Source: an uncultured bacterium
GTDB taxonomy: Bacteria; Omnitrophota; Omnitrophia; Omnitrophales; Aquincolibacteriaceae
Assembly: GCA_964410905.1 (NCBI GenBank)
Contig: CAYPIR010000004.1
Coordinates: 9,878-73,877, forward strand
Reading direction: 5' to 3'
Length of the DNA: 64,000 nt
Part shown: in pieces, positions 7,966-16,523 of the stretch
How positions within the stretch are numbered: the stretch's first letter is position 1
How the letters are laid out: the number at the start of each line of letters is the position of its first letter
Translations under genes and position numbers: made by a program
Notes under the pieces: model-generated
Database searches by the model: none
The model's input: only the letters and a program-made list of their open reading frames with translations
Told to the model about the DNA's origin: nothing

Positions 7966-10900
7966 TTACGCAGATTTGGCAATTACGAAATCGCTGGCAA
8001 GTTTTTCCGCCAGAGATTTAAAAAGCGTTCCCGCCAAATTCAGGAACCTATTAATCATTTTTTCATTCACAACAATCGGTTTCTCGCGCAGCGCTTCTGT
8101 CAACTCTTCCGCCAACGCGAGTTCGTCTGAGCTGATCATCGCTTTAAGCGAAATGCCGTTTTTGGCAAGAAATTTAACCGCCTCTGTCGCGTCAGAAAAA
8201 ACTTCCACTCTATTTTGAAGATTTTCCGCCGCTATGATTTTTTTAATACTTTCAATTTGCGAACGGTCTTTTTCCAAAATCACAAAACTGCTCCCCGCGT
8301 AAATCGTCTTAGCAAGCGCCAGCAAACCCTTTCCTTTAGCGAGCGCCAAATCCGCGCCCAAAATAAACGAGTCGTTTCCATTAACTTCAAGCCCAAGCGC
8401 TCCAACGGCATTTTGAATAGAAGTTTTAGCCCCTTTGGAAGAAATGCTATTGCTAGCCTCTGTATCAGCGGCCAAACGTTCTGGATTAGCAAGAGCGGAA
8501 GCGAGTCCATCTGTTACCTCTGCCGTTACAAAACGGCTCGAGCTTTCGCTTCCGCCGGCATTTCCGTCCGCTGTTTTATTTTCATTTAGAAAATAAGAAG
8601 ACGGAATGTTTTCTTCATTTTTTCGCGCGCGAACGTCAGCGCGGTAAACTATTGCTTCCACAATAGAGTTTCCGCTTGAACCAAACGCGTCTCTTTTTCT
8701 AACCGTCCAATCTATAGCATTCTCATTTCCGACTCTGGAATACCCTTCATCTCTTCCAAGACGAAGCCTCCTGTCAAATTCCGCCATTGCCTTGTTAAAA
8801 ATTTCCAAAATTTTTTCACTTTCCTTTTCGCTGGGCAGAAGAGTTGTTCCCGCTTGAAATTCTTCGGCATCAACTCCATTTTTCAAATTTTCTTTTTCAA
8901 GCCTAGCCTCTATTGAATATTTCAGATAATGAGGCAGCCGCACAGCCTCAAGCCATTGCGTTCTATCACGGCCGTTCGCGCCTTCACGATTAACCGGAAC
9001 GCCTACCGTCCAACCATCGCCATCTTTTGAATGATAAAAACTATCTCCAGAACGAATGCCGTAAATTCGGCCTCGCAAAGCGTTCACTACAACATAAGAC
9101 GCAGTCGAAGAATTTTGAATGGGAGATTTTGACAAATCAAGAACCTTAAACCACGCCTTACCGTCTTGAACGTTATACGGCTCTGATGAGAAATGAATCA
9201 CATTAAAAAGATTTCTTTCTTTAAATTTTCTCGACATCGCAAATCCGCTTGTCGGATCGGTTTTGCGAATAAGCGCTTTGCCGTCCTTAAAAAATCCTTT
9301 ATATTTTTCGGACTCTATTGTCTTTTTAAGCTGCGAGTAATATCCAAAATCCCAGTTCTTCATTTCATCAAGCAAAGACGGTTCCAAAAATGTTACAAAA
9401 CTCATCACCGCCCGCATCCCTCGCGCGAATGTTCCAACCGCAACATTTCTAGGAAGACCAGAAATTTCTTGCAACAATTCCTTCAAAGCGCCCGGCATTT
9501 CTTGAGCCTTTTGGATTTCGCGGGCGATAAAGTCAGCGTTATTTTGCTTTCCGGCAAAAAGATGTCCCTGCGAAAGATCTAATACTGCTAACAAAAACGG
9601 GTGCCCGACTCGTCCAAGTTCTTTTCTCTCTTTTGTATCAATCCTTGTAATTTTCAGCGCCTGAAATCCTACGTCCTTGGGAATGCCGACATCTAAACCT
9701 CTTTGAGTAATATCGCCGACAGAATACGAGCCGTATTTCGCGCTCAAGCCGGCGTCTTCTATACGAACCGTGCCCACGCCGGGCAACAATCCTTTCCAAA
9801 CGGGTCCGCCCTGTATTCTTCCCCAGACTTTAGCTGCATCACTTTTCTTTCCTTGAGGATAACCAAACCAGCCCCTGTCGAAAACAAGAAGATATACCGG
9901 ACCTTTTTCATAACGGAAAGGATACGCGGTTATCAAGTCCGTGGATGTTACAAACTCTTCATCGCCTGAAATCTTTTGGTTTTGCCGTTTTATAGCTTTT
10001 TCTAAATAGATTTTGTAGCCCGCATTTTTAAATATGGCGGGACTCCACGCTCGCTCATTTGCCGATTCTTGCAAATATTGTCCAAAAACATCTAATACGA
10101 AGGTGTCCAAAAGAGTAAGCGTTTCTTCATCTTTTATCTGTTCGCTTACAACACGGCTTATATCGTTCCATATATCCGCATAATCTTCATCGTAAACAGT
10201 TAGAAAAATCGCCCGTTTTTCTTCAACAGCGCTTACCCCGTCTATTTTCTTAAAAATCCCTTTTCTGAATGCCGCAAAACCCTCAACGGCGTTTCTCTTT
10301 ATTTTTTGGAACTCAGTTTTTTCTGTCTCGTCAAAAATATCTTCAAAGCTCGCGAGCTGCGTTGTATAAAAAACAGCTTTTTGCCAATTCAAAGTTTCCG
10401 CGGTGGCCGCTACGCGCTTAAAAATACTTTTCACTTCTATTCTTCGCGCGATTTCCCGCAACAATCTGCTAGCCTCTGGGATTCGGGTCAGCAGCACATC
10501 CATATTGTCCGTGCTAAGAGAACCCGCCAATTTTTCGATCTCTGTTTTTGCGACAACTTCAATCAATGAGTGCTCATTTTCAAACGGGCTTCTTTTAGTT
10601 TTCACCATTTCATCCGCCCAACCGTTTAAATCTGAATACCCAATGCCTTTAGCCGAGAATTCACTGGCGAGCCTGTCTAATTCTTCATATGTTGCGGCTA
10701 CTATTCTTTGTTCAGATCTGTTATTTTCATCACTTCGCACTTCATCGCGAAGACTTCCCCAAGCCACTTCGTTTTCTTTTACAACTCGCATCCAGAGCAA
10801 GTCTTCTACGCCCTCCACATGCAATTGCTTAGAAAGCGAGTCCACCATAATAAACGGCTGTCTTCCTTTAGTATCATCTATGATAATCGTATAAACCGTT

Positions 10901-13161
10901 CCTGATGCTCTAATTTTAAATTCGACAAGTGTTCCACGCAGTTTCTCTTCTGAAACATTTTTCTTTTCCAAAAACTTTACGATTGTCCCTCTCTCATCTT
11001 TTAAATCATCCTCAGAAAATGAAAAAATAGGCTGTGTTTGCCGCCCGCGATTTTCGCTTCTACTGACAAGATTTTTGGGATACATAAAAAACGAATCGCC
11101 CGCGCCCTTTAAAATCCATTCTTTTTCATCTTTTAAATTCGTAGCCTCTAACAGTTTAGTTAAAATAACTCGACCGGCGGAGTCAGGCATTAACAAATAA
11201 GCGTTTCCATTTTTTTTGTCTAAGTATTTTTGCCGTTCTTCTAAATTTTCCGGCAAATCTCGGGCAATGTTTCTATCCCAAATCTTCTGAGTGAAAACGC
11301 GCACTCGTTTGTTTTTTTCTTCATAAAGCGCCACCAACGCATCGGTGCTTTCAGATCCAATCGCCTTGCGAAATTCCGCAGGAATAGTTATCCGATTTTT
11401 TCCATCAAGATTAAGAAGGAATGTTCCTAAAAATTTACTTTCATAATCAACATCTATTAATTTCCTTAAAACATATTCAACAAGCTGTGGATTAATTTGC
11501 CCAACATTATCAACTATTTGTTTCACGAGAAGAGCGTAATCTCTTCGCCAATTTTCCGGATTCTGCGCTTGAGAGAATCTAATATCGCTCCGAACAGTCG
11601 GAGCTATATATGAACCGGAAACGCTTTTTCGTCCTAAAAGCGCCGTTAGATAATTTTTTTTATCTTGGAATGAAACTTCGCTTATTTTTGGGGTAATGCC
11701 GATATATGAAGCATAGTTTTTTTGAAACGCTTTTTGGAATCCTTCGGTATGAAATCCGCCCGTAATTAAAATCGTTTTTGTTTCGCCAAGTTCTTTTAAG
11801 CGGCTAAAAACGTTTTCCGCCATAAAATTTTCACGCTCAATCGCTCCCTCGTAAAACTTAAGAGCGTTTGAAAAAGTCTCTTTAACGCTCTGAAACTCCG
11901 CTTCGCGCGTAAGAGACAAATCAATTTGGGCGAGCTTAACTATCGATAATTTCTCTTCCCTCAACAAGTCATATTCCCGTCTGGACATTTCAAGCCGCAA
12001 CGCTTTTTTTATGAGTGAATATTCGTTTAAATTTTGAACAAGATTTTTTTCATCATTTGTTTTAATTAATTTTTCTTCGATTTCTTTAATAAGCCGCTCT
12101 ATTTCCGTTTGCAAGGTCTCGATATCAATTTCGGAAGTCAAAATCATTTTTTGTATAAAAACTTTAAGATTCGGATATGCGTCAAAAGAAAAATCTGCGG
12201 GGCTTGCGTCTACCAGACGTTCAAAAATAAACCTTGTTTCGTAAATTGGAAGTTCATTTCGGGAAGCGAGATCAAAGACTTTCTCAATATCAGCCACGAC
12301 TTTAGGATTTTCAAAACCTTCGTTTTTAATGTTTAGTCGAATATCATTTAAAAATTGTTCTTTCTCTTCCTCGAGTTTTTGGGAGGTGGGATTTTTTTCC
12401 GATTTAATTTTGAAATACCGAGTAAGAGCAGGATAATTTATTTGCTCGCTAATGTCCGCTAGATTTTTTTCTAGTTCCGATGAGTATGTCTTCTTTAATC
12501 TCTCAACCCAATCAGTGAGGGTTATTTTCCCGTCTTCGTAAGCAGTTTTCTCCGTTAAAAATTCACGAAGATTTTTATTCAGTTTTTCCCCCGCGGACTT
12601 TTGCCATTTTATATAAATTTTATTCAAAAACGTTTCCACTATTTTACGCTTAGAAAAAACTTCACGATAAAGCTCAAGATTCTTTTTATACTCTTCGGGA
12701 TTTTCAACTCCCCAGCCTTGAACAGCGTCTGGATGCTTCATCAGAAACGCTTCCGCCCCTGTCATTTCTCCCGCGCTCATCAATGCTTTATTAATTTTAT
12801 TTTGGACAGCTTCGTCTTCGGAGAATACGAAAAAATCGGGGTCAAGCTGAAAGCCCGCGCCTTCCATCAAAACCAGATTAATCCCGTAAGATTGGTATAG
12901 ATGCTCCAAAATAGCTTGTATGTTTTTTTGCGCGTCATAATTAGAATGCGCCTCTTGAATATGAACAATAAGCGGCGCGTCATTTTTCGCAAAAACAACT
13001 TTATCAATACTGCCAAGACCAAGCGGAATTTCCAAGCCAAAAGCCTTTGAAGAAGCCCCCGCTGTTACAAGCGTCGGCGCGTTCGCGAAAATATTTGTCG
13101 CAAAAAAAGTGGTTAAAACGCTAATTGATATGATTTTTTTAATTTGATTTTTAAAAGACAT
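7966..13161 (-). CDS. Giant (1731 aa) predicted secreted protein of unknown function. N-terminal Sec signal peptide, TraB/GumN-like N-terminal region, internal MraZ-like module, about 1000 aa unassigned C-terminal region
   Basis: Single uninterrupted ORF with an AAGAGGA RBS before the ATG. N-terminus MSFKNQIKKIISISVLTTFFATNIFANA|PT looks like a signal peptide with an AXA cleavage site. Residues about 577-697 align motif-for-motif with MraZ (see findings). Confidence 0.7.
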   Translation of the reverse strand: MSFKNQIKKIISISVLTTFFATNIFANAPTLVTAGASSKAFGLEIPLGLGSIDKVVFAKNDAPLIVHIQEAHSNYDAQKNIQAILEHLYQSYGINLVLMEGAGFQLDPDFFVFSEDEAVQNKINKALMSAGEMTGAEAFLMKHPDAVQGWGVENPEEYKKNLELYREVFSKRKIVETFLNKIYIKWQKSAGEKLNKNLREFLTEKTAYEDGKITLTDWVERLKKTYSSELEKNLADISEQINYPALTRYFKIKSEKNPTSQKLEEEKEQFLNDIRLNIKNEGFENPKVVADIEKVFDLASRNELPIYETRFIFERLVDASPADFSFDAYPNLKVFIQKMILTSEIDIETLQTEIERLIKEIEEKLIKTNDEKNLVQNLNEYSLIKKALRLEMSRREYDLLREEKLSIVKLAQIDLSLTREAEFQSVKETFSNALKFYEGAIERENFMAENVFSRLKELGETKTILITGGFHTEGFQKAFQKNYASYIGITPKISEVSFQDKKNYLTALLGRKSVSGSYIAPTVRSDIRFSQAQNPENWRRDYALLVKQIVDNVGQINPQLVEYVLRKLIDVDYESKFLGTFLLNLDGKNRITIPAEFRKAIGSESTDALVALYEEKNKRVRVFTQKIWDRNIARDLPENLEERQKYLDKKNGNAYLLMPDSAGRVILTKLLEATNLKDEKEWILKGAGDSFFMYPKNLVSRSENRGRQTQPIFSFSEDDLKDERGTIVKFLEKKNVSEEKLRGTLVEFKIRASGTVYTIIIDDTKGRQPFIMVDSLSKQLHVEGVEDLLWMRVVKENEVAWGSLRDEVRSDENNRSEQRIVAATYEELDRLASEFSAKGIGYSDLNGWADEMVKTKRSPFENEHSLIEVVAKTEIEKLAGSLSTDNMDVLLTRIPEASRLLREIARRIEVKSIFKRVAATAETLNWQKAVFYTTQLASFEDIFDETEKTEFQKIKRNAVEGFAAFRKGIFKKIDGVSAVEEKRAIFLTVYDEDYADIWNDISRVVSEQIKDEETLTLLDTFVLDVFGQYLQESANERAWSPAIFKNAGYKIYLEKAIKRQNQKISGDEEFVTSTDLITAYPFRYEKGPVYLLVFDRGWFGYPQGKKSDAAKVWGRIQGGPVWKGLLPGVGTVRIEDAGLSAKYGSYSVGDITQRGLDVGIPKDVGFQALKITRIDTKERKELGRVGHPFLLAVLDLSQGHLFAGKQNNADFIAREIQKAQEMPGALKELLQEISGLPRNVAVGTFARGMRAVMSFVTFLEPSLLDEMKNWDFGYYSQLKKTIESEKYKGFFKDGKALIRKTDPTSGFAMSRKFKERNLFNVIHFSSEPYNVQDGKAWFKVLDLSKSPIQNSSTASYVVVNALRGRIYGIRSGDSFYHSKDGDGWTVGVPVNREGANGRDRTQWLEAVRLPHYLKYSIEARLEKENLKNGVDAEEFQAGTTLLPSEKESEKILEIFNKAMAEFDRRLRLGRDEGYSRVGNENAIDWTVRKRDAFGSSGNSIVEAIVYRADVRARKNEENIPSSYFLNENKTADGNAGGSESSSRFVTAEVTDGLASALANPERLAADTEASNSISSKGAKTSIQNAVGALGLEVNGNDSFILGADLALAKGKGLLALAKTIYAGSSFVILEKDRSQIESIKKIIAAENLQNRVEVFSDATEAVKFLAKNGISLKAMISSDELALAEELTEALREKPIVVNEKMINRFLNLAGTLFKSLAEKLASDFVIAKSA

Positions 13162-14606: not shown

Positions 14607-15020
14607 TTATTTATATAGAGTTAAAAATTCTTGCGCGCGATCAAGCTGATCCGTGCGTATAACAAGACAACCGCTGTCTTGAGAGGAAGACGCGGTGCAA
14701 TAAGCATAAGCTATATTAATATCCGCCTCCGCGAGTCGTTGACAAATTTTAGTAAGCACGCCCGACTTGTTATCGATTTCAATTACAAGAACATCTTGTT
14801 CCGTGACAAAAAGTTCTTCTTGTTCAAGAAGCAGTCCGGCTTTTGTCGGATTATCCACGATAAACCGAACCACGCCATTATCAACCGCGTCATGAACCGT
14901 CATCGCGAGAATATTGATGTTTGCCTCTGATAACACCGAACAAGCCCGAGCCATTACGCCCGGTCTGTTGGATAAAAAAACGGAAAGTTGTTTTTGTATA
15001 GGCATCGCTCGTCTCTCCAT
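14607..15020 (-). CDS. ACT-domain protein (tandem ACT)
   Basis: 137 aa; two beta-alpha-beta-beta-alpha-beta ACT-like halves (LSVFLSNRPGVMARACSVLSEANINI..., IEIDNKSGVLTKICQRLAEADINI...). Confidence 0.55.
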   Translation of the reverse strand: MERRAMPIQKQLSVFLSNRPGVMARACSVLSEANINILAMTVHDAVDNGVVRFIVDNPTKAGLLLEQEELFVTEQDVLVIEIDNKSGVLTKICQRLAEADINIAYAYCTASSSQDSGCLVIRTDQLDRAQEFLTLYK

Positions 15021-15230
15021 CGACTGTTAACAAATATTAACGATAAACTTTTTTAAAAAAGCAAATAAAGTTTATATTCACCAGCTTACTCTTTAGTCAG
15101 CGCCATTTGTTACAAAACATAATTTTTTGCTAGGTTAGAACTGCAAAAGGATATCACGCTAGGAAGCGTCCTTCTAGCTAATTTATGAGAATTTACATTA
15201 ACCGTGTCTGGCAAAAGTCGAACTGACTGG

Positions 15231-15575
15231 TTATGCAAAGGCAGGTCGGCTTAACACATTTGTCGAAGCGTATTTCAAACGAGATCGTTTGGGGCGAATA
15301 ACAATTTCAACATCGTTTCCCAATCGATTTAACATTTCAAAAAGATTGTCTAAAGAGAAAAGGTTTATTTTGCCGTTTAAAAGACAAGACACTTTAGGCT
15401 GTGAAATATTCAGAGTTTCCGCGATTTGTTTTTGTTTTAACCCTCGTTTTTTAATTATTTCGTTAATTTTCAACATCACTTCTGCGCGCGCGCGAATGCG
15501 TTCGGGCATATTTATTTTGATGTCAGAAAACACATCATTGCTTTCGTGTTGAATTTTAATTTTTTGAATCATCAT
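15231..15575 (-). CDS. HigA-type XRE-family antitoxin / HTH regulator
   Basis: 114 aa; HTH (LKQKQIAETLNISQPKVSCLLNG). Its ATG overlaps (ATGA) the stop of the upstream HigB-like reading frame. Confidence 0.65.
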   Translation of the reverse strand: MMIQKIKIQHESNDVFSDIKINMPERIRARAEVMLKINEIIKKRGLKQKQIAETLNISQPKVSCLLNGKINLFSLDNLFEMLNRLGNDVEIVIRPKRSRLKYASTNVLSRPAFA

Positions 15576-15951
15576 TTATTCCCTTTCAAATAATAATTCT
15601 TATAATCCTTTCTCGCCGTTTTAAATCTTGTCCAAATCAGCCTCATTTCTATAAGCGGTGTCTTGATGTCATGCTTCGATTTTTTTGAAAACACTGCAGT
15701 GCATAAATTGCTTTCGGATATTTTATTGTATAAACAACACGGTAAGTTCCGCCTTTGGAATTATCAAAAGTTTTAAATATTCTCGTATTCCCAAAACCTG
15801 ATAACCGATTTGTCCTATAAGGCTACCCTCTGCGCTGGACAAGAAAAAGTCCGTATCCAATATTTTCTTTAACAGACTCTGGGAAACCGTTCTGATCTTC
15901 TCTAGCTAACTCAACGAAATCTATTTTCCTTACTTTTGTCGCATCTTTCAT
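15572..15951 (-). pseudogene. HigB-like (Gp49/RelE-superfamily) toxin, disrupted by an in-frame TAG and a -1 frameshift
   Basis: Minus-strand reading from the ATG at 15951 gives MKDATKVRKIDFVELAREDQNGFPESVKENIGYGLFLVQRRG, then TAG (15823-15825), then PYRTNRLSGFGNTRIFKTFDNSKGGTYRVVYTIKYPKAIYALQCFQ. A run of A7 (plus-strand T7 at 15680-15686) then shifts the frame. In the +1 frame the read continues KKSKHDIKTPLIEMRLIWTRFKTARKDYKNYYLKGNK* and ends on a TGA that overlaps the antitoxin ATG. This matches the HigB consensus (G.YRVIY...LHAFQKKTQKTP..EI..A..R). Confidence 0.6.
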
Positions 15952-16120
15952 AATATATCATATTTGATATAAATTAACGAGCTTCTTGTTTTTACAAAAA
16001 GAATATATTTATATATAAAATATTACATATCAATTTGCATGTCACCGCTCCGTTTTTAACCAAAAAAAGTGCAATAGACGTTGTGCATGCCAATCATTTC
16101 ATGGACAGATTTTGATACTT

Positions 16121-16250
16121 AGTCATCGCATCGATGCCCAATGCATCGATACTGGAAGTACCACAACCTTACGTTTGCAGTCATTCCGCATCGATGCCCA
16201 ATGCATCGATACTGGAAGTACCACAACCTTACGGCACTGTCATTCCGCGC
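16121..16250. repeat. 60-bp direct tandem repeat, about 2.2 copies, each containing the palindrome GCATCGATGC
   Basis: 16127-16173 and 16187-16233 are identical over 47 bp (cgcatcgatgcccaatgcatcgatactggaagtaccacaaccttacg). A third unit starts at 16241 (tcattccgcg) and then diverges. Confidence 0.85.
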
Positions 16251-16523
16251 GTTGCTTTTTAACGTCGCGGAATCCAAATACAAAAAACCTTTAGAACCTG
16301 CAACTTCACTACGTTTCGTGCAGGATGACGCAATAGACGAATGCTACGAGGCAGACTCGCTATTACGTATCGGCGAATTCAAACTGGACGAGACGACAAA
16401 TCCTCGCTTGTTTGTGTCAATGCAATGAGCATTGACTTGTCGCCGATGCCGCTTAACTAATCCTGTTTACGAAATTATTGACTTCTACAGACGTGATAAA
16501 TTTTTTGACCCGTTTTTGCTTTA

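What the first reader, a model, noticed from the sequence alone, without database searches (positions are those of the whole stretch)
15572..15951. HigB-type toxin gene inactivated by both an amber stop and a -1 frameshift, with the HigA-type antitoxin left intact
The reading frame upstream of the XRE antitoxin (15231-15575) clearly encodes a Gp49/HigB-like RelE-superfamily toxin; it has the characteristic G.YRV.Y...I.AL..F.KK....IKTP..E motif. It carries an in-frame TAG at 15823-15825, after ...GLFLVQRRG. It also carries a 1-nt deficit in a homopolymer, A7 on the coding strand, at 15680-15686. The downstream part (KKSKHDIKTPLIEMRLIWTRFKTARKDYKNYYLKGNK*) is only readable in the +1 frame. That frame ends on a TGA overlapping the antitoxin ATG, which is the classic TA coupling. 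The pair is therefore a decaying toxin-antitoxin module with the antitoxin/regulator retained.
Basis: seen in the sequence. Interest (0 to 1): 0.5.

Follow-up and report, generated by a model that had tools for sequence, protein, structure and literature searches.

The report
Dead toxin gene, intact antitoxin
This is an ordinary decaying toxin-antitoxin pair in an uncultured Omnitrophota bacterium: the toxin gene is broken by a stop codon and a one-base deletion, while its partner antitoxin/repressor gene is still whole.

Summary
On the minus strand, 15951-15572 is a Gp49-type (PF05973, RelE/ParE superfamily) toxin gene. It has an in-frame TAG at 15825-15823. It also has a 1-nt deletion in an A run (A7 at 15686-15680; an intact relative has A8 at the same codons). 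Its last frame ends in a TGA overlapping the ATG of an intact HTH_37 (HigA-superfamily) antitoxin at 15575-15231.

Both lesions are identical in four independently assembled public contigs. TAG is a normal stop in this genome, and most of the 99 other A/T runs of 7 or more lie inside long ORFs that stay open. Sequencing error and recoding are therefore very unlikely.

After conceptual repair the toxin aligns without gaps to intact 117-aa relatives at 43-46% identity. It scores only 49.6 bits against Pfam Gp49, where relatives score 78-91, and it has lost near-invariant residues. The antitoxin scores 87 bits, like its relatives (86-92). The -10 box and operator palindrome are conserved.

Best reading: a horizontally acquired Gp49/HTH_37 module, absent from about 30 syntenic Omnitrophota genomes, whose toxin has died while the autoregulating antitoxin persists. 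This is a known phenomenon and of low interest.

The parts
15954..15971 (-). Operator-like palindrome TATATCAAATATGATATA (7-bp arms, 4-nt spacer) just upstream of the toxin ATG
   Evidence: The same palindrome, TATACCAAATATGGTATA, sits between the -35 and -10 boxes of relatives L005/L006/L008. The window copy differs by a symmetric C>T / G>A pair that keeps the dyad. Binding by the antitoxin is inferred, not tested.
15952..15960 (-). Extended -10-like element TGaTATATT, conserved with relatives (TGgTATATT). The -35 equivalent (15980-15975, TCGTTA) is poor compared with TTGACT in relatives.
   Evidence: Gap-free DNA alignment. The consensus scan did not flag this site and proposed a different weak site at 16045-16017. 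Promoter use is inferred.
15826..15951 (-). Toxin remnant, segment 1: codons 1-42 (MKDATKVRKIDFVELAREDQNGFPESVKENIGYGLFLVQRRG)
   Evidence: The N-terminus resembles that of the Nitrosospira multiformis plasmid homologue (MQDVRK...).
15823..15825 (-). Premature in-frame TAG (codon 43). It aligns with AAG (Lys) codons of intact relatives (GAG is the adjacent upstream codon), one base change away.
   Evidence: It is identical in 4 independent contigs. TAG terminates 11 of 62 long ORFs in the window.
15682..15822 (-). Toxin remnant, segment 2: codons 44-90, the beta-sheet core (PYRTNRLSGFGNTRIFKTFDNSKGGTYRVVYTIKYPKAIYALQCFQK)
   Evidence: This segment alone hits Pfam Gp49 at 30.5 bits. An exhaustive HMMER search finds family members at no more than about 52% identity.
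15680..15686 (-). A7 homopolymer carrying a 1-nt deletion in the conserved F-Q-K-K-S codons
   Evidence: Intact relative L005 reads TGT TTT CAA AAA AAA GCG (A8) at the same place. The run is identical in 4 independent contigs.
15572..15681 (-). Toxin remnant, segment 3: the C-terminal helix, readable only in the -1 frame (..KSKHDIKTPLIEMRLIWTRFKTARKDYKNYYLKGNK*). The TGA at 15574-15572 overlaps the antitoxin start.
   Evidence: The same 4-nt toxin/antitoxin overlap occurs in the N. multiformis plasmid homologue.
15580..15586 (-). Shine-Dalgarno-like AAAGGGA, 4 to 7 nt upstream of the two candidate antitoxin ATGs (15575, 15572)
   Evidence: Read directly. Its function is inferred. The public gene call P0001 starts at the second ATG.
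15231..15575 (-). Intact HTH_37 / HigA-superfamily antitoxin and presumed autorepressor (114 aa, or 113 aa from the second ATG)
   Evidence: Pfam PF13744 at 87.0 bits over profile positions 1-80 of 80. PDB relatives by sequence are 2o38, 2a6c, Mtb HigA2 7ewc and S. pneumoniae HigA 6af3_B. Relatives' antitoxins score 85.6-91.8 bits.
15156..15178 (-). Weak hairpin downstream of the antitoxin stop; a possible terminator
   Evidence: The stem is short and the T tract poor, within the number expected by chance. Low confidence.

Best explanation
The locus is a horizontally acquired type II toxin-antitoxin operon of the Gp49 (PF05973, RelE/ParE-fold mRNA interferase) / HTH_37 (PF13744, HigA-superfamily) kind. 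It has the usual toxin-first order. It lies in the chromosome of a Candidatus Omnitrophota bacterium.

The toxin gene is a genuine pseudogene.
- A point mutation created TAG at codon 43.
- Slippage removed one A from an A8 run in the conserved FQKKS codons.
- The coding sequence has additionally drifted away from the family consensus.
- No active toxin can therefore be made.

The antitoxin gene is intact. Inferred, not shown: it is still transcribed from the conserved operon promoter through the dead toxin gene, translated from its own Shine-Dalgarno sequence, and represses that promoter by binding the conserved palindrome.

With no cognate toxin to neutralise, it now acts only as a small autoregulated DNA-binding protein. 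It is either a transient leftover or is kept because it can neutralise related incoming toxins (anti-addiction).
For: Shown:
- The lesions and frames are as described.
- Family membership of both genes holds.
- The repaired toxin aligns gap-free at 43-46% identity with intact 117-aa toxins that precede 54-59%-identical antitoxins.
- An intact relative has A8 at the A7 site.
- The lesions are identical in four independently assembled contigs.
- TAG ends 11 of 62 long ORFs, and most of the 99 A/T runs of 7 or more lie in long ORFs that remain open.

Asymmetric decay:
- The repaired toxin scores 49.6 bits against Pfam Gp49, where four intact relatives score 78.5-91.3.
- The antitoxin scores 87.0 bits against 85.6-91.8.
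- On a family HMM built from sequences chosen for similarity to the window itself, the window copy scores 110.7 bits against 152-169.
- Near-invariant family residues are replaced: E60K (98% E), H86Q (92% H), K48N, G95D.
- Among intact relatives toxin identity (84-87%) is similar to antitoxin identity (79-88%). For the window it is 43-44% against 54-55%.

Regulation and fold:
- The -10 box and operator palindrome are conserved with a dyad-preserving double change.
- A modelled family member matches RelE, HigB2 and S. pneumoniae HigB structures.

Foreign origin:
- The module is absent from about 30 syntenic Omnitrophota loci.
- Local GC is 34.6% against about 42%.
- The family is common on plasmids: 266 records, annotated as RelE/ParE family toxin followed by an HTH regulator.
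Against: - No expression data exist. Promoter use, antitoxin translation and operator binding are inferred.
- The four supporting contigs are from one strain-level population (no true SNPs). Three of the runs share an accession series and may include the reads behind the window's own assembly.
- The window toxin has no close intact relative anywhere (best about 50%). Part of its low family score could therefore reflect a divergent lineage rather than post-inactivation drift.
- The order of events (missense, stop, deletion) cannot be resolved.
- Whether selection or mere recency keeps the antitoxin open is not proven.
Confidence: 0.88

Rival explanations
1. The two lesions are sequencing or assembly errors, and the organism carries an intact, functional toxin gene.
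For: One lesion lies in a homopolymer, a classic error site. The source is evidently a metagenome-assembled genome, since its relatives are all MAGs.
Against: - The TAG is not a homopolymer error.
- Four independently assembled contigs from four runs carry both lesions.
- Most of the 99 other A/T runs of 7-9 in the window lie within long ORFs that remain open.
- Even after repair the protein is an unusually poor family member, with radical changes at near-invariant positions.
Confidence: 0.03
2. The toxin is made on purpose at very low level by recoding. This would need read-through of TAG plus -1 ribosomal frameshifting, or transcriptional slippage, on the A-run (C AAA AAA T). The gene would then be a throttled toxin rather than a dead one.
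For: The A7 run in frame CAA AAA AAT allows tRNA-Lys re-pairing in the -1 frame. The -1 frame stays open to a stop that is neatly coupled to the antitoxin start.
Against: - Two independent low-efficiency events would be needed.
- TAG is an ordinary stop here, ending 11 of 62 ORFs.
- The 90 nt after the run has no stimulatory structure (z = -0.08), and no Shine-Dalgarno-like stimulator lies upstream.
- Intact relatives encode the protein in one frame, one with A8 at this site, so the arrangement is derived and not conserved.
- Conserved residues are lost.
Confidence: 0.02
3. The whole module is neutral debris. The antitoxin is intact only because the toxin died recently, and it has no retained function.
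For: - The remnant has only one stop and one indel and is still fully alignable, so inactivation is not ancient.
- No polymorphism data are available.
- No second Gp49 toxin is visible in the 64-kb window.
Against: - The asymmetry is strong. The toxin has lost about 35 bits of Pfam signal and several near-invariant residues, while the antitoxin scores like those of intact modules.
- The operator dyad and -10 box are preserved.
- This suggests a period in which the antitoxin was constrained and the toxin was not.
- That period could, however, predate the disabling mutations, for example if the toxin was attenuated first.
Confidence: 0.35

Closest known systems
Gp49 (PF05973) / HTH_37 (PF13744) type II TA modules, e.g. 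those carried by Tn3-family transposons (Tn4662a, TnDsu1, TnPosp1; PMC7157771) and the annotated pair on Nitrosospira multiformis plasmid 1 (NC_007615.1)
   Same: - Both Pfam families match.
- The gene order is toxin first.
- The overlap is 4 nt (ATGA).
- Sizes are about 117-128 aa and 109-117 aa.
- Identity to the N. multiformis toxin is 41% over 125 aa, including the long N-terminus.
   Different: - The toxin is disrupted by a stop and a 1-nt deletion and has drifted.
- The location is chromosomal, in Omnitrophota.
- No transposase, resolvase or plasmid genes lie nearby.
Intact metagenomic relatives L005-L009 (closest antitoxins in 5.8 billion proteins)
   Same: - The antitoxins are 54-59% identical and the toxins 43-46%, in a gap-free alignment.
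- The same extended -10 box and the same operator palindrome are present.
   Different: - The relatives have 117-aa open toxin genes with a Shine-Dalgarno leader and a 10-13 nt intergenic gap.
- The window copy has a longer N-terminus, an overlapping stop/start, and the two lesions.
Structurally characterised RelE-fold mRNA interferases: M. tuberculosis RelE1/RelE2 (9g12, 3g5o), V. cholerae HigB2 (5jaa), S. pneumoniae HigB (6af3/6af4)
   Same: - The fold of a modelled family member matches (Foldseek prob 0.97-1.0, TM 0.5-0.67).
- The window antitoxin matches S. pneumoniae HigA and Mtb HigA2 by sequence.
- The family is listed as performing ribosome-dependent mRNA degradation (PMC11980606).
   Different: - Sequence identity is only 11-20%, and there are no direct sequence hits to any PDB toxin.
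- V. cholerae HigB2 is filed under PF06296, not PF05973 (PMC11980606).
- The model was of relative P0012, not of the window protein.
Documented decayed TA loci with surviving antitoxins: parE pseudogene/ParD in Caulobacter crescentus, frameshifted YacB/YacA in Shigella flexneri, degraded modules behind 'orphan' antitoxins in Klebsiella (PMC7354431), and Tn5501.5 with a truncated toxin and intact antitoxin (PMC7157771)
   Same: The outcome is the same: the toxin is inactivated by a frameshift, a stop or a truncation, and the antitoxin ORF is left whole.
   Different: The toxin family and the host phylum differ. Here there are two lesions plus measurable drift of the toxin sequence.

Membership tests
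Gp49-like toxin (Pfam PF05973, RelE/ParE superfamily) | Sequence match to the family profile above the curated threshold | tested here: met
   The repaired 126 aa scores 49.6 bits against a cut-off of 23.9, over profile positions 4-90 of 90. The unrepaired middle segment alone scores 30.5 bits.
Gp49-like toxin (Pfam PF05973, RelE/ParE superfamily) | An uninterrupted ORF encoding the whole domain (needed for a functional member) | tested here: not met
   TAG at codon 43 and a 1-nt deletion at codons 90/91. The locus is a pseudogene of the family, not a functional member.
Gp49-like toxin (Pfam PF05973, RelE/ParE superfamily) | Conservation of near-invariant family residues | tested here: not met
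   23 of 36 columns conserved at 70% or more are kept. E60K (98% E), H86Q (92% H), K48N and G95D are radical changes. Which of these residues are catalytic is not known to me.
Gp49-like toxin (Pfam PF05973, RelE/ParE superfamily) | RelE/BECR fold | tested here: inconclusive
   An AF2 model of relative P0012 (pLDDT 83) matches RelE, HigB2 and HigB structures. P0012 also has a non-native C-terminus.
Gp49-like toxin (Pfam PF05973, RelE/ParE superfamily) | Ribosome-dependent mRNA cleavage activity | not testable with these tools
   The family assignment comes from the literature (PMC11980606). No activity is expected from this copy.
Classical HigB families (PF05015 HigB-like, PF09907 HigB) | Sequence match to those profiles | tested here: not met
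   No hit at E<=1. 'HigB-type' is correct only in the loose sense used for Gp49 members such as Mtb HigB1/HigB3 (PMC11980606).
HTH_37 / HigA-superfamily antitoxin (PF13744) | Full-length match to the family profile; intact ORF | tested here: met
   87.0 bits over profile positions 1-80 of 80 in an open 114-aa ORF. The score equals those of antitoxins from intact modules.
HTH_37 / HigA-superfamily antitoxin (PF13744) | Located immediately downstream of, and translationally coupled to, a RelE-fold toxin gene | tested here: met
   ATGA overlap at 15575-15572. The same layout occurs in relatives and in NC_007615.1.
HTH_37 / HigA-superfamily antitoxin (PF13744) | Binds a palindromic operator in its own promoter and neutralises the toxin | not testable with these tools
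   A conserved palindrome overlapping the -10 region is present. Binding and neutralisation are inferred.
Type II TA operon (functional addiction module) | Both a functional toxin and a functional antitoxin | tested here: not met
   The toxin is disrupted. The locus is a remnant.

The most novel reading that the evidence does not exclude
The toxin is not dead but gated by double recoding. Rare TAG read-through together with -1 slippage on the A7 run would yield trace amounts of an attenuated RelE-fold toxin. That would make this a new way of throttling a toxin-antitoxin system. A milder version is that the surviving antitoxin is actively kept as an anti-addiction factor or co-opted regulator in Omnitrophota (I put that at about 0.3, with low interest).
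Probability: 0.02. Interest if true: 0.65.

Novelty: new member of a known kind. Interest (0 to 1): 0.15.

Why it matters
It matters little beyond correct annotation.
- The stretch 15572-15951 should be annotated as a pseudogene (Gp49/RelE-family toxin), not as two or three small hypothetical ORFs.
- The downstream gene should be annotated as an orphaned HigA-superfamily antitoxin or regulator.

It is a clean, well-controlled example of asymmetric decay of a TA module: the toxin drifts while the antitoxin and operator are held. It comes from a poorly studied phylum, so it could serve as a data point for surveys of TA turnover and of 'orphan' antitoxins. It does not open a new question.

Tried and rejected
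1. The word-indexed protein search with the repaired toxin found nothing. The family had to be reached through the antitoxin and an exhaustive HMMER run with the 47-aa core.

I therefore modelled a relative, P0012. It later proved to be a truncated family member itself.

3. NCBIfam gave no toxin hit. PDB sequence and profile searches gave no toxin hit.

4. A DNA pattern allowing A6-A9 at the run found no match in JGI metagenome contigs. No intact allele of this exact gene is on record.

5. I considered a third lesion, namely loss of the ancestral start codon and Shine-Dalgarno sequence. In a gap-free alignment the ATG of the 117-aa relatives corresponds to AAA in the window. I dropped this idea because the N. 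multiformis plasmid homologue has the same long N-terminus (MQDVRK against MKDATK) and an ATG close to its -10 box. ATG 15951 is therefore probably native.

6. I suspected the QKK-coding A-run of being a recurrent frameshift hotspot, because P0012 and P0018 diverge after FQKKSK. For P0012 the DNA shows a truncation or rearrangement, not a frameshift. P0018 was not checked.

7. No RNA family lies in or around the locus, and there is no tRNA nearby.

8. dN/dS was not attempted, because divergence from the nearest relatives is saturated.

Full report
**Observation**

- On the minus strand an ATG at 15951 opens a frame that reads MKDATKVRKIDFVELAREDQNGFPESVKENIGYGLFLVQRRG. It then meets TAG at 15825-15823.
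- The same frame continues as PYRTNRLSGFGNTRIFKTFDNSKGGTYRVVYTIKYPKAIYALQCFQK, up to an A7 run at 15686-15680. After the run it degenerates (NRSMTSRHRL*).
- The frame one base back reads ...FSKKSKHDIKTPLIEMRLIWTRFKTARKDYKNYYLKGNK. It stops at TGA 15574-15572, overlapping the ATG (15575-15573) of an open 114-aa ORF at 15575-15231.
The downstream frame is the -1 frame, which corresponds to a 1-nt deletion.

**What the two genes are**

- The conceptually repaired 126-aa protein matches Pfam Gp49 (PF05973) at 49.6 bits, E 4e-13, against a cut-off of 23.9. The match covers profile positions 4-90 of 90 and so runs across both lesions.
- No other toxin family, including the classical HigB families, appears at E<=1.
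- The downstream ORF is a full-length HTH_37 (PF13744) protein at 87 bits.
- Its PDB sequence relatives include Mtb HigA2 (7ewc) and S. pneumoniae HigA (6af3_B).
- Gp49/HTH_37 is a recognised type II TA pairing with the toxin gene first. Gp49 is listed among ribosome-dependent mRNA-degrading RelE/ParE-superfamily toxins (PMC7157771; PMC11980606).
- An AlphaFold model of a family member (pLDDT 83) finds RelE, V. cholerae HigB2 and S. pneumoniae HigB as its best solved matches.
- In plasmid records, 266 homologues at about 40% identity are annotated 'type II toxin-antitoxin system RelE/ParE family toxin'.
- One example is Nitrosospira multiformis plasmid 1. Its toxin is followed, with the same 4-nt overlap, by an HTH regulator.

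**Related sequences**

- The antitoxin's nearest relatives in a 5.8-billion-protein collection are 55-59% identical.
- Their contigs carry intact 117-aa Gp49 genes immediately upstream.
- The repaired window toxin aligns to these without a single gap at 43-46% identity, with BLASTP E 9e-37.
- The TAG falls on a Lys column. Relatives read GAG AAG or GAG AAA there, so one base change suffices.
- Relative L005 reads TGT TTT CAA AAA AAA GCG, an A8 run, exactly where the window has A7. The frameshift is therefore a plain one-base slippage deletion in the conserved F-Q-K-K codons.
- An exhaustive HMMER search of 1.84 billion representatives with the 47-aa core found 77 hits. None was above about 52% identity.
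- A DNA pattern tolerant of A6-A9 found nothing in JGI metagenomes. No intact allele of this particular gene is known.

**Are the lesions real?**

- The exact antitoxin protein occurs on four Logan contigs assembled independently from runs SRR11845623, -24, -25 and SRR27197510.
- All four are identical to the window through the remnant, including TAG and A7.
- TAG terminates 11 of 62 long ORFs in the window, so it is an ordinary stop.
- The window contains 99 A/T runs of 7 or more. Most lie in long ORFs that remain open. The run at 15680-15686 lies in none of them, and it is the only one where I found a homology-supported frame break.
- Caveat: the four contigs represent one strain-level population, and some of those runs may underlie the window's own assembly.

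**Is it recoding?**

- This would need two independent inefficient events.
- The 90 nt downstream of the run fold no better than shuffles (z = -0.08).
- Relatives encode the protein in a single frame.
- I rate this at about 2%.

**Asymmetric decay**

| Measure | Window | Intact relatives |
|---|---|---|
| Toxin (repaired), Pfam Gp49 | 49.6 bits | 86.7, 78.5, 82.6, 91.3 bits |
| Antitoxin, Pfam HTH_37 | 87.0 bits | 85.6, 91.8, 88.3, 90.9 bits |
| Toxin, family HMM built from sequences picked for similarity to the window | 110.7 bits | 152-169 bits |

- Of 36 columns conserved at 70% or more, 13 differ in the window copy. Radical changes at near-invariant positions are E60K, H86Q, K48N and G95D.
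- Among intact relatives toxin identity (84-87%) is similar to antitoxin identity (79-88%). For the window against relatives it is 43-44% against 54-55%.
- The toxin has therefore evolved under relaxed constraint while the antitoxin has not.
- Part of the difference could be lineage divergence, and the order of the disabling events is unknown.

**Regulatory region**

- Relatives have TTGACT, a 17-nt spacer, then TATATT preceded by TG. The palindrome TATACCAAATATGGTATA lies between the boxes.
- The window keeps TGaTATATT (15960-15952) and the palindrome as TATATCAAATATGATATA (15971-15954). The palindrome shows a symmetric C>T/G>A change that preserves the dyad.
- The -35 equivalent is poor.
- The antitoxin has its own AAAGGGA upstream.
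- Inferred: the operon promoter still drives the antitoxin through the dead toxin gene, and the antitoxin represses it at the palindrome.
- I first thought the native start codon had also been lost, because the relatives' ATG aligns with AAA. The N. multiformis homologue shares the window's longer N-terminus, so I withdrew that.

**Context**

- The window is a chromosomal segment carrying ribosomal-protein and rpoBC-sized genes at 90% coding density.
- It comes from a Candidatus Omnitrophota bacterium. The best ExoIII matches, at 72%, are all to Omnitrophota MAGs.
- The ACT-ExoIII-SRPBCC block next to the module is syntenic in about 30 Omnitrophota species. None has the TA module.
- In those species an rRNA operon lies there instead.
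- Local GC is 34.6% against about 42%.
- No mobile-element genes flank the module.
- The module is thus a lineage-specific acquisition at a synteny breakpoint.

**Verdict**

- The phenomenon of an inactivated toxin with a surviving antitoxin is well documented (PMC7354431; PMC7157771). This is a new but ordinary member of a known kind.
- Interest is about 0.15.

Noticed in passing
window 15021-16523, compared with L013, L016, L019, L034: In related Omnitrophota a 16S-tRNA-tRNA-23S-5S rRNA operon sits directly upstream of the ACT-ExoIII block, and many MAG contigs end there. In the window that position holds the TA remnant and then a divergent amino-acid permease. No rRNA occurs anywhere in the 64 kb. 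This is either a rearrangement or relocation of the rRNA operon in this lineage, or conceivably an assembly join.
   Followed up: partly
window 16127-16233 (+): There is a perfect tandem duplication: two 47-nt copies 60 nt apart, each containing the near-palindrome ATCGATGCCCAATGCATCGAT. It lies in the intergenic region between the TA remnant and the permease and occurs nowhere else in the window. The Logan contig L001 shows a single copy, which may be repeat collapse. Its function is unknown.
   Followed up: partly
L092 1413-1799 (protein P0012): This is another decayed family member. Its Gp49 core ends right after FQKKSKK and continues into unrelated sequence, and no antitoxin follows. Decay of this toxin family seems common. 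P0018 also diverges after FQKKSKSGI but was not examined.
   Followed up: partly
window 15954-15971 versus L005/L006/L008 promoters: The operator palindrome differs from the relatives' by a symmetric pair of substitutions (TATACC..GGTATA to TATATC..GATATA). The pattern looks like co-variation that maintains dyad symmetry for a dimeric HTH repressor.
   Followed up: partly
window 7966-13161 (-): A 1731-aa ORF has only one weak Pfam hit, an MraZ-like segment at residues 577-636 (40 bits). It is a giant protein of unknown function downstream of the SRPBCC/ExoIII genes.
   Followed up: no
window 15001-16000: This is the lowest-GC kilobase of the window, at 34.6% against a typical 40-46%. That is consistent with a foreign origin of the TA module.
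   Followed up: yes
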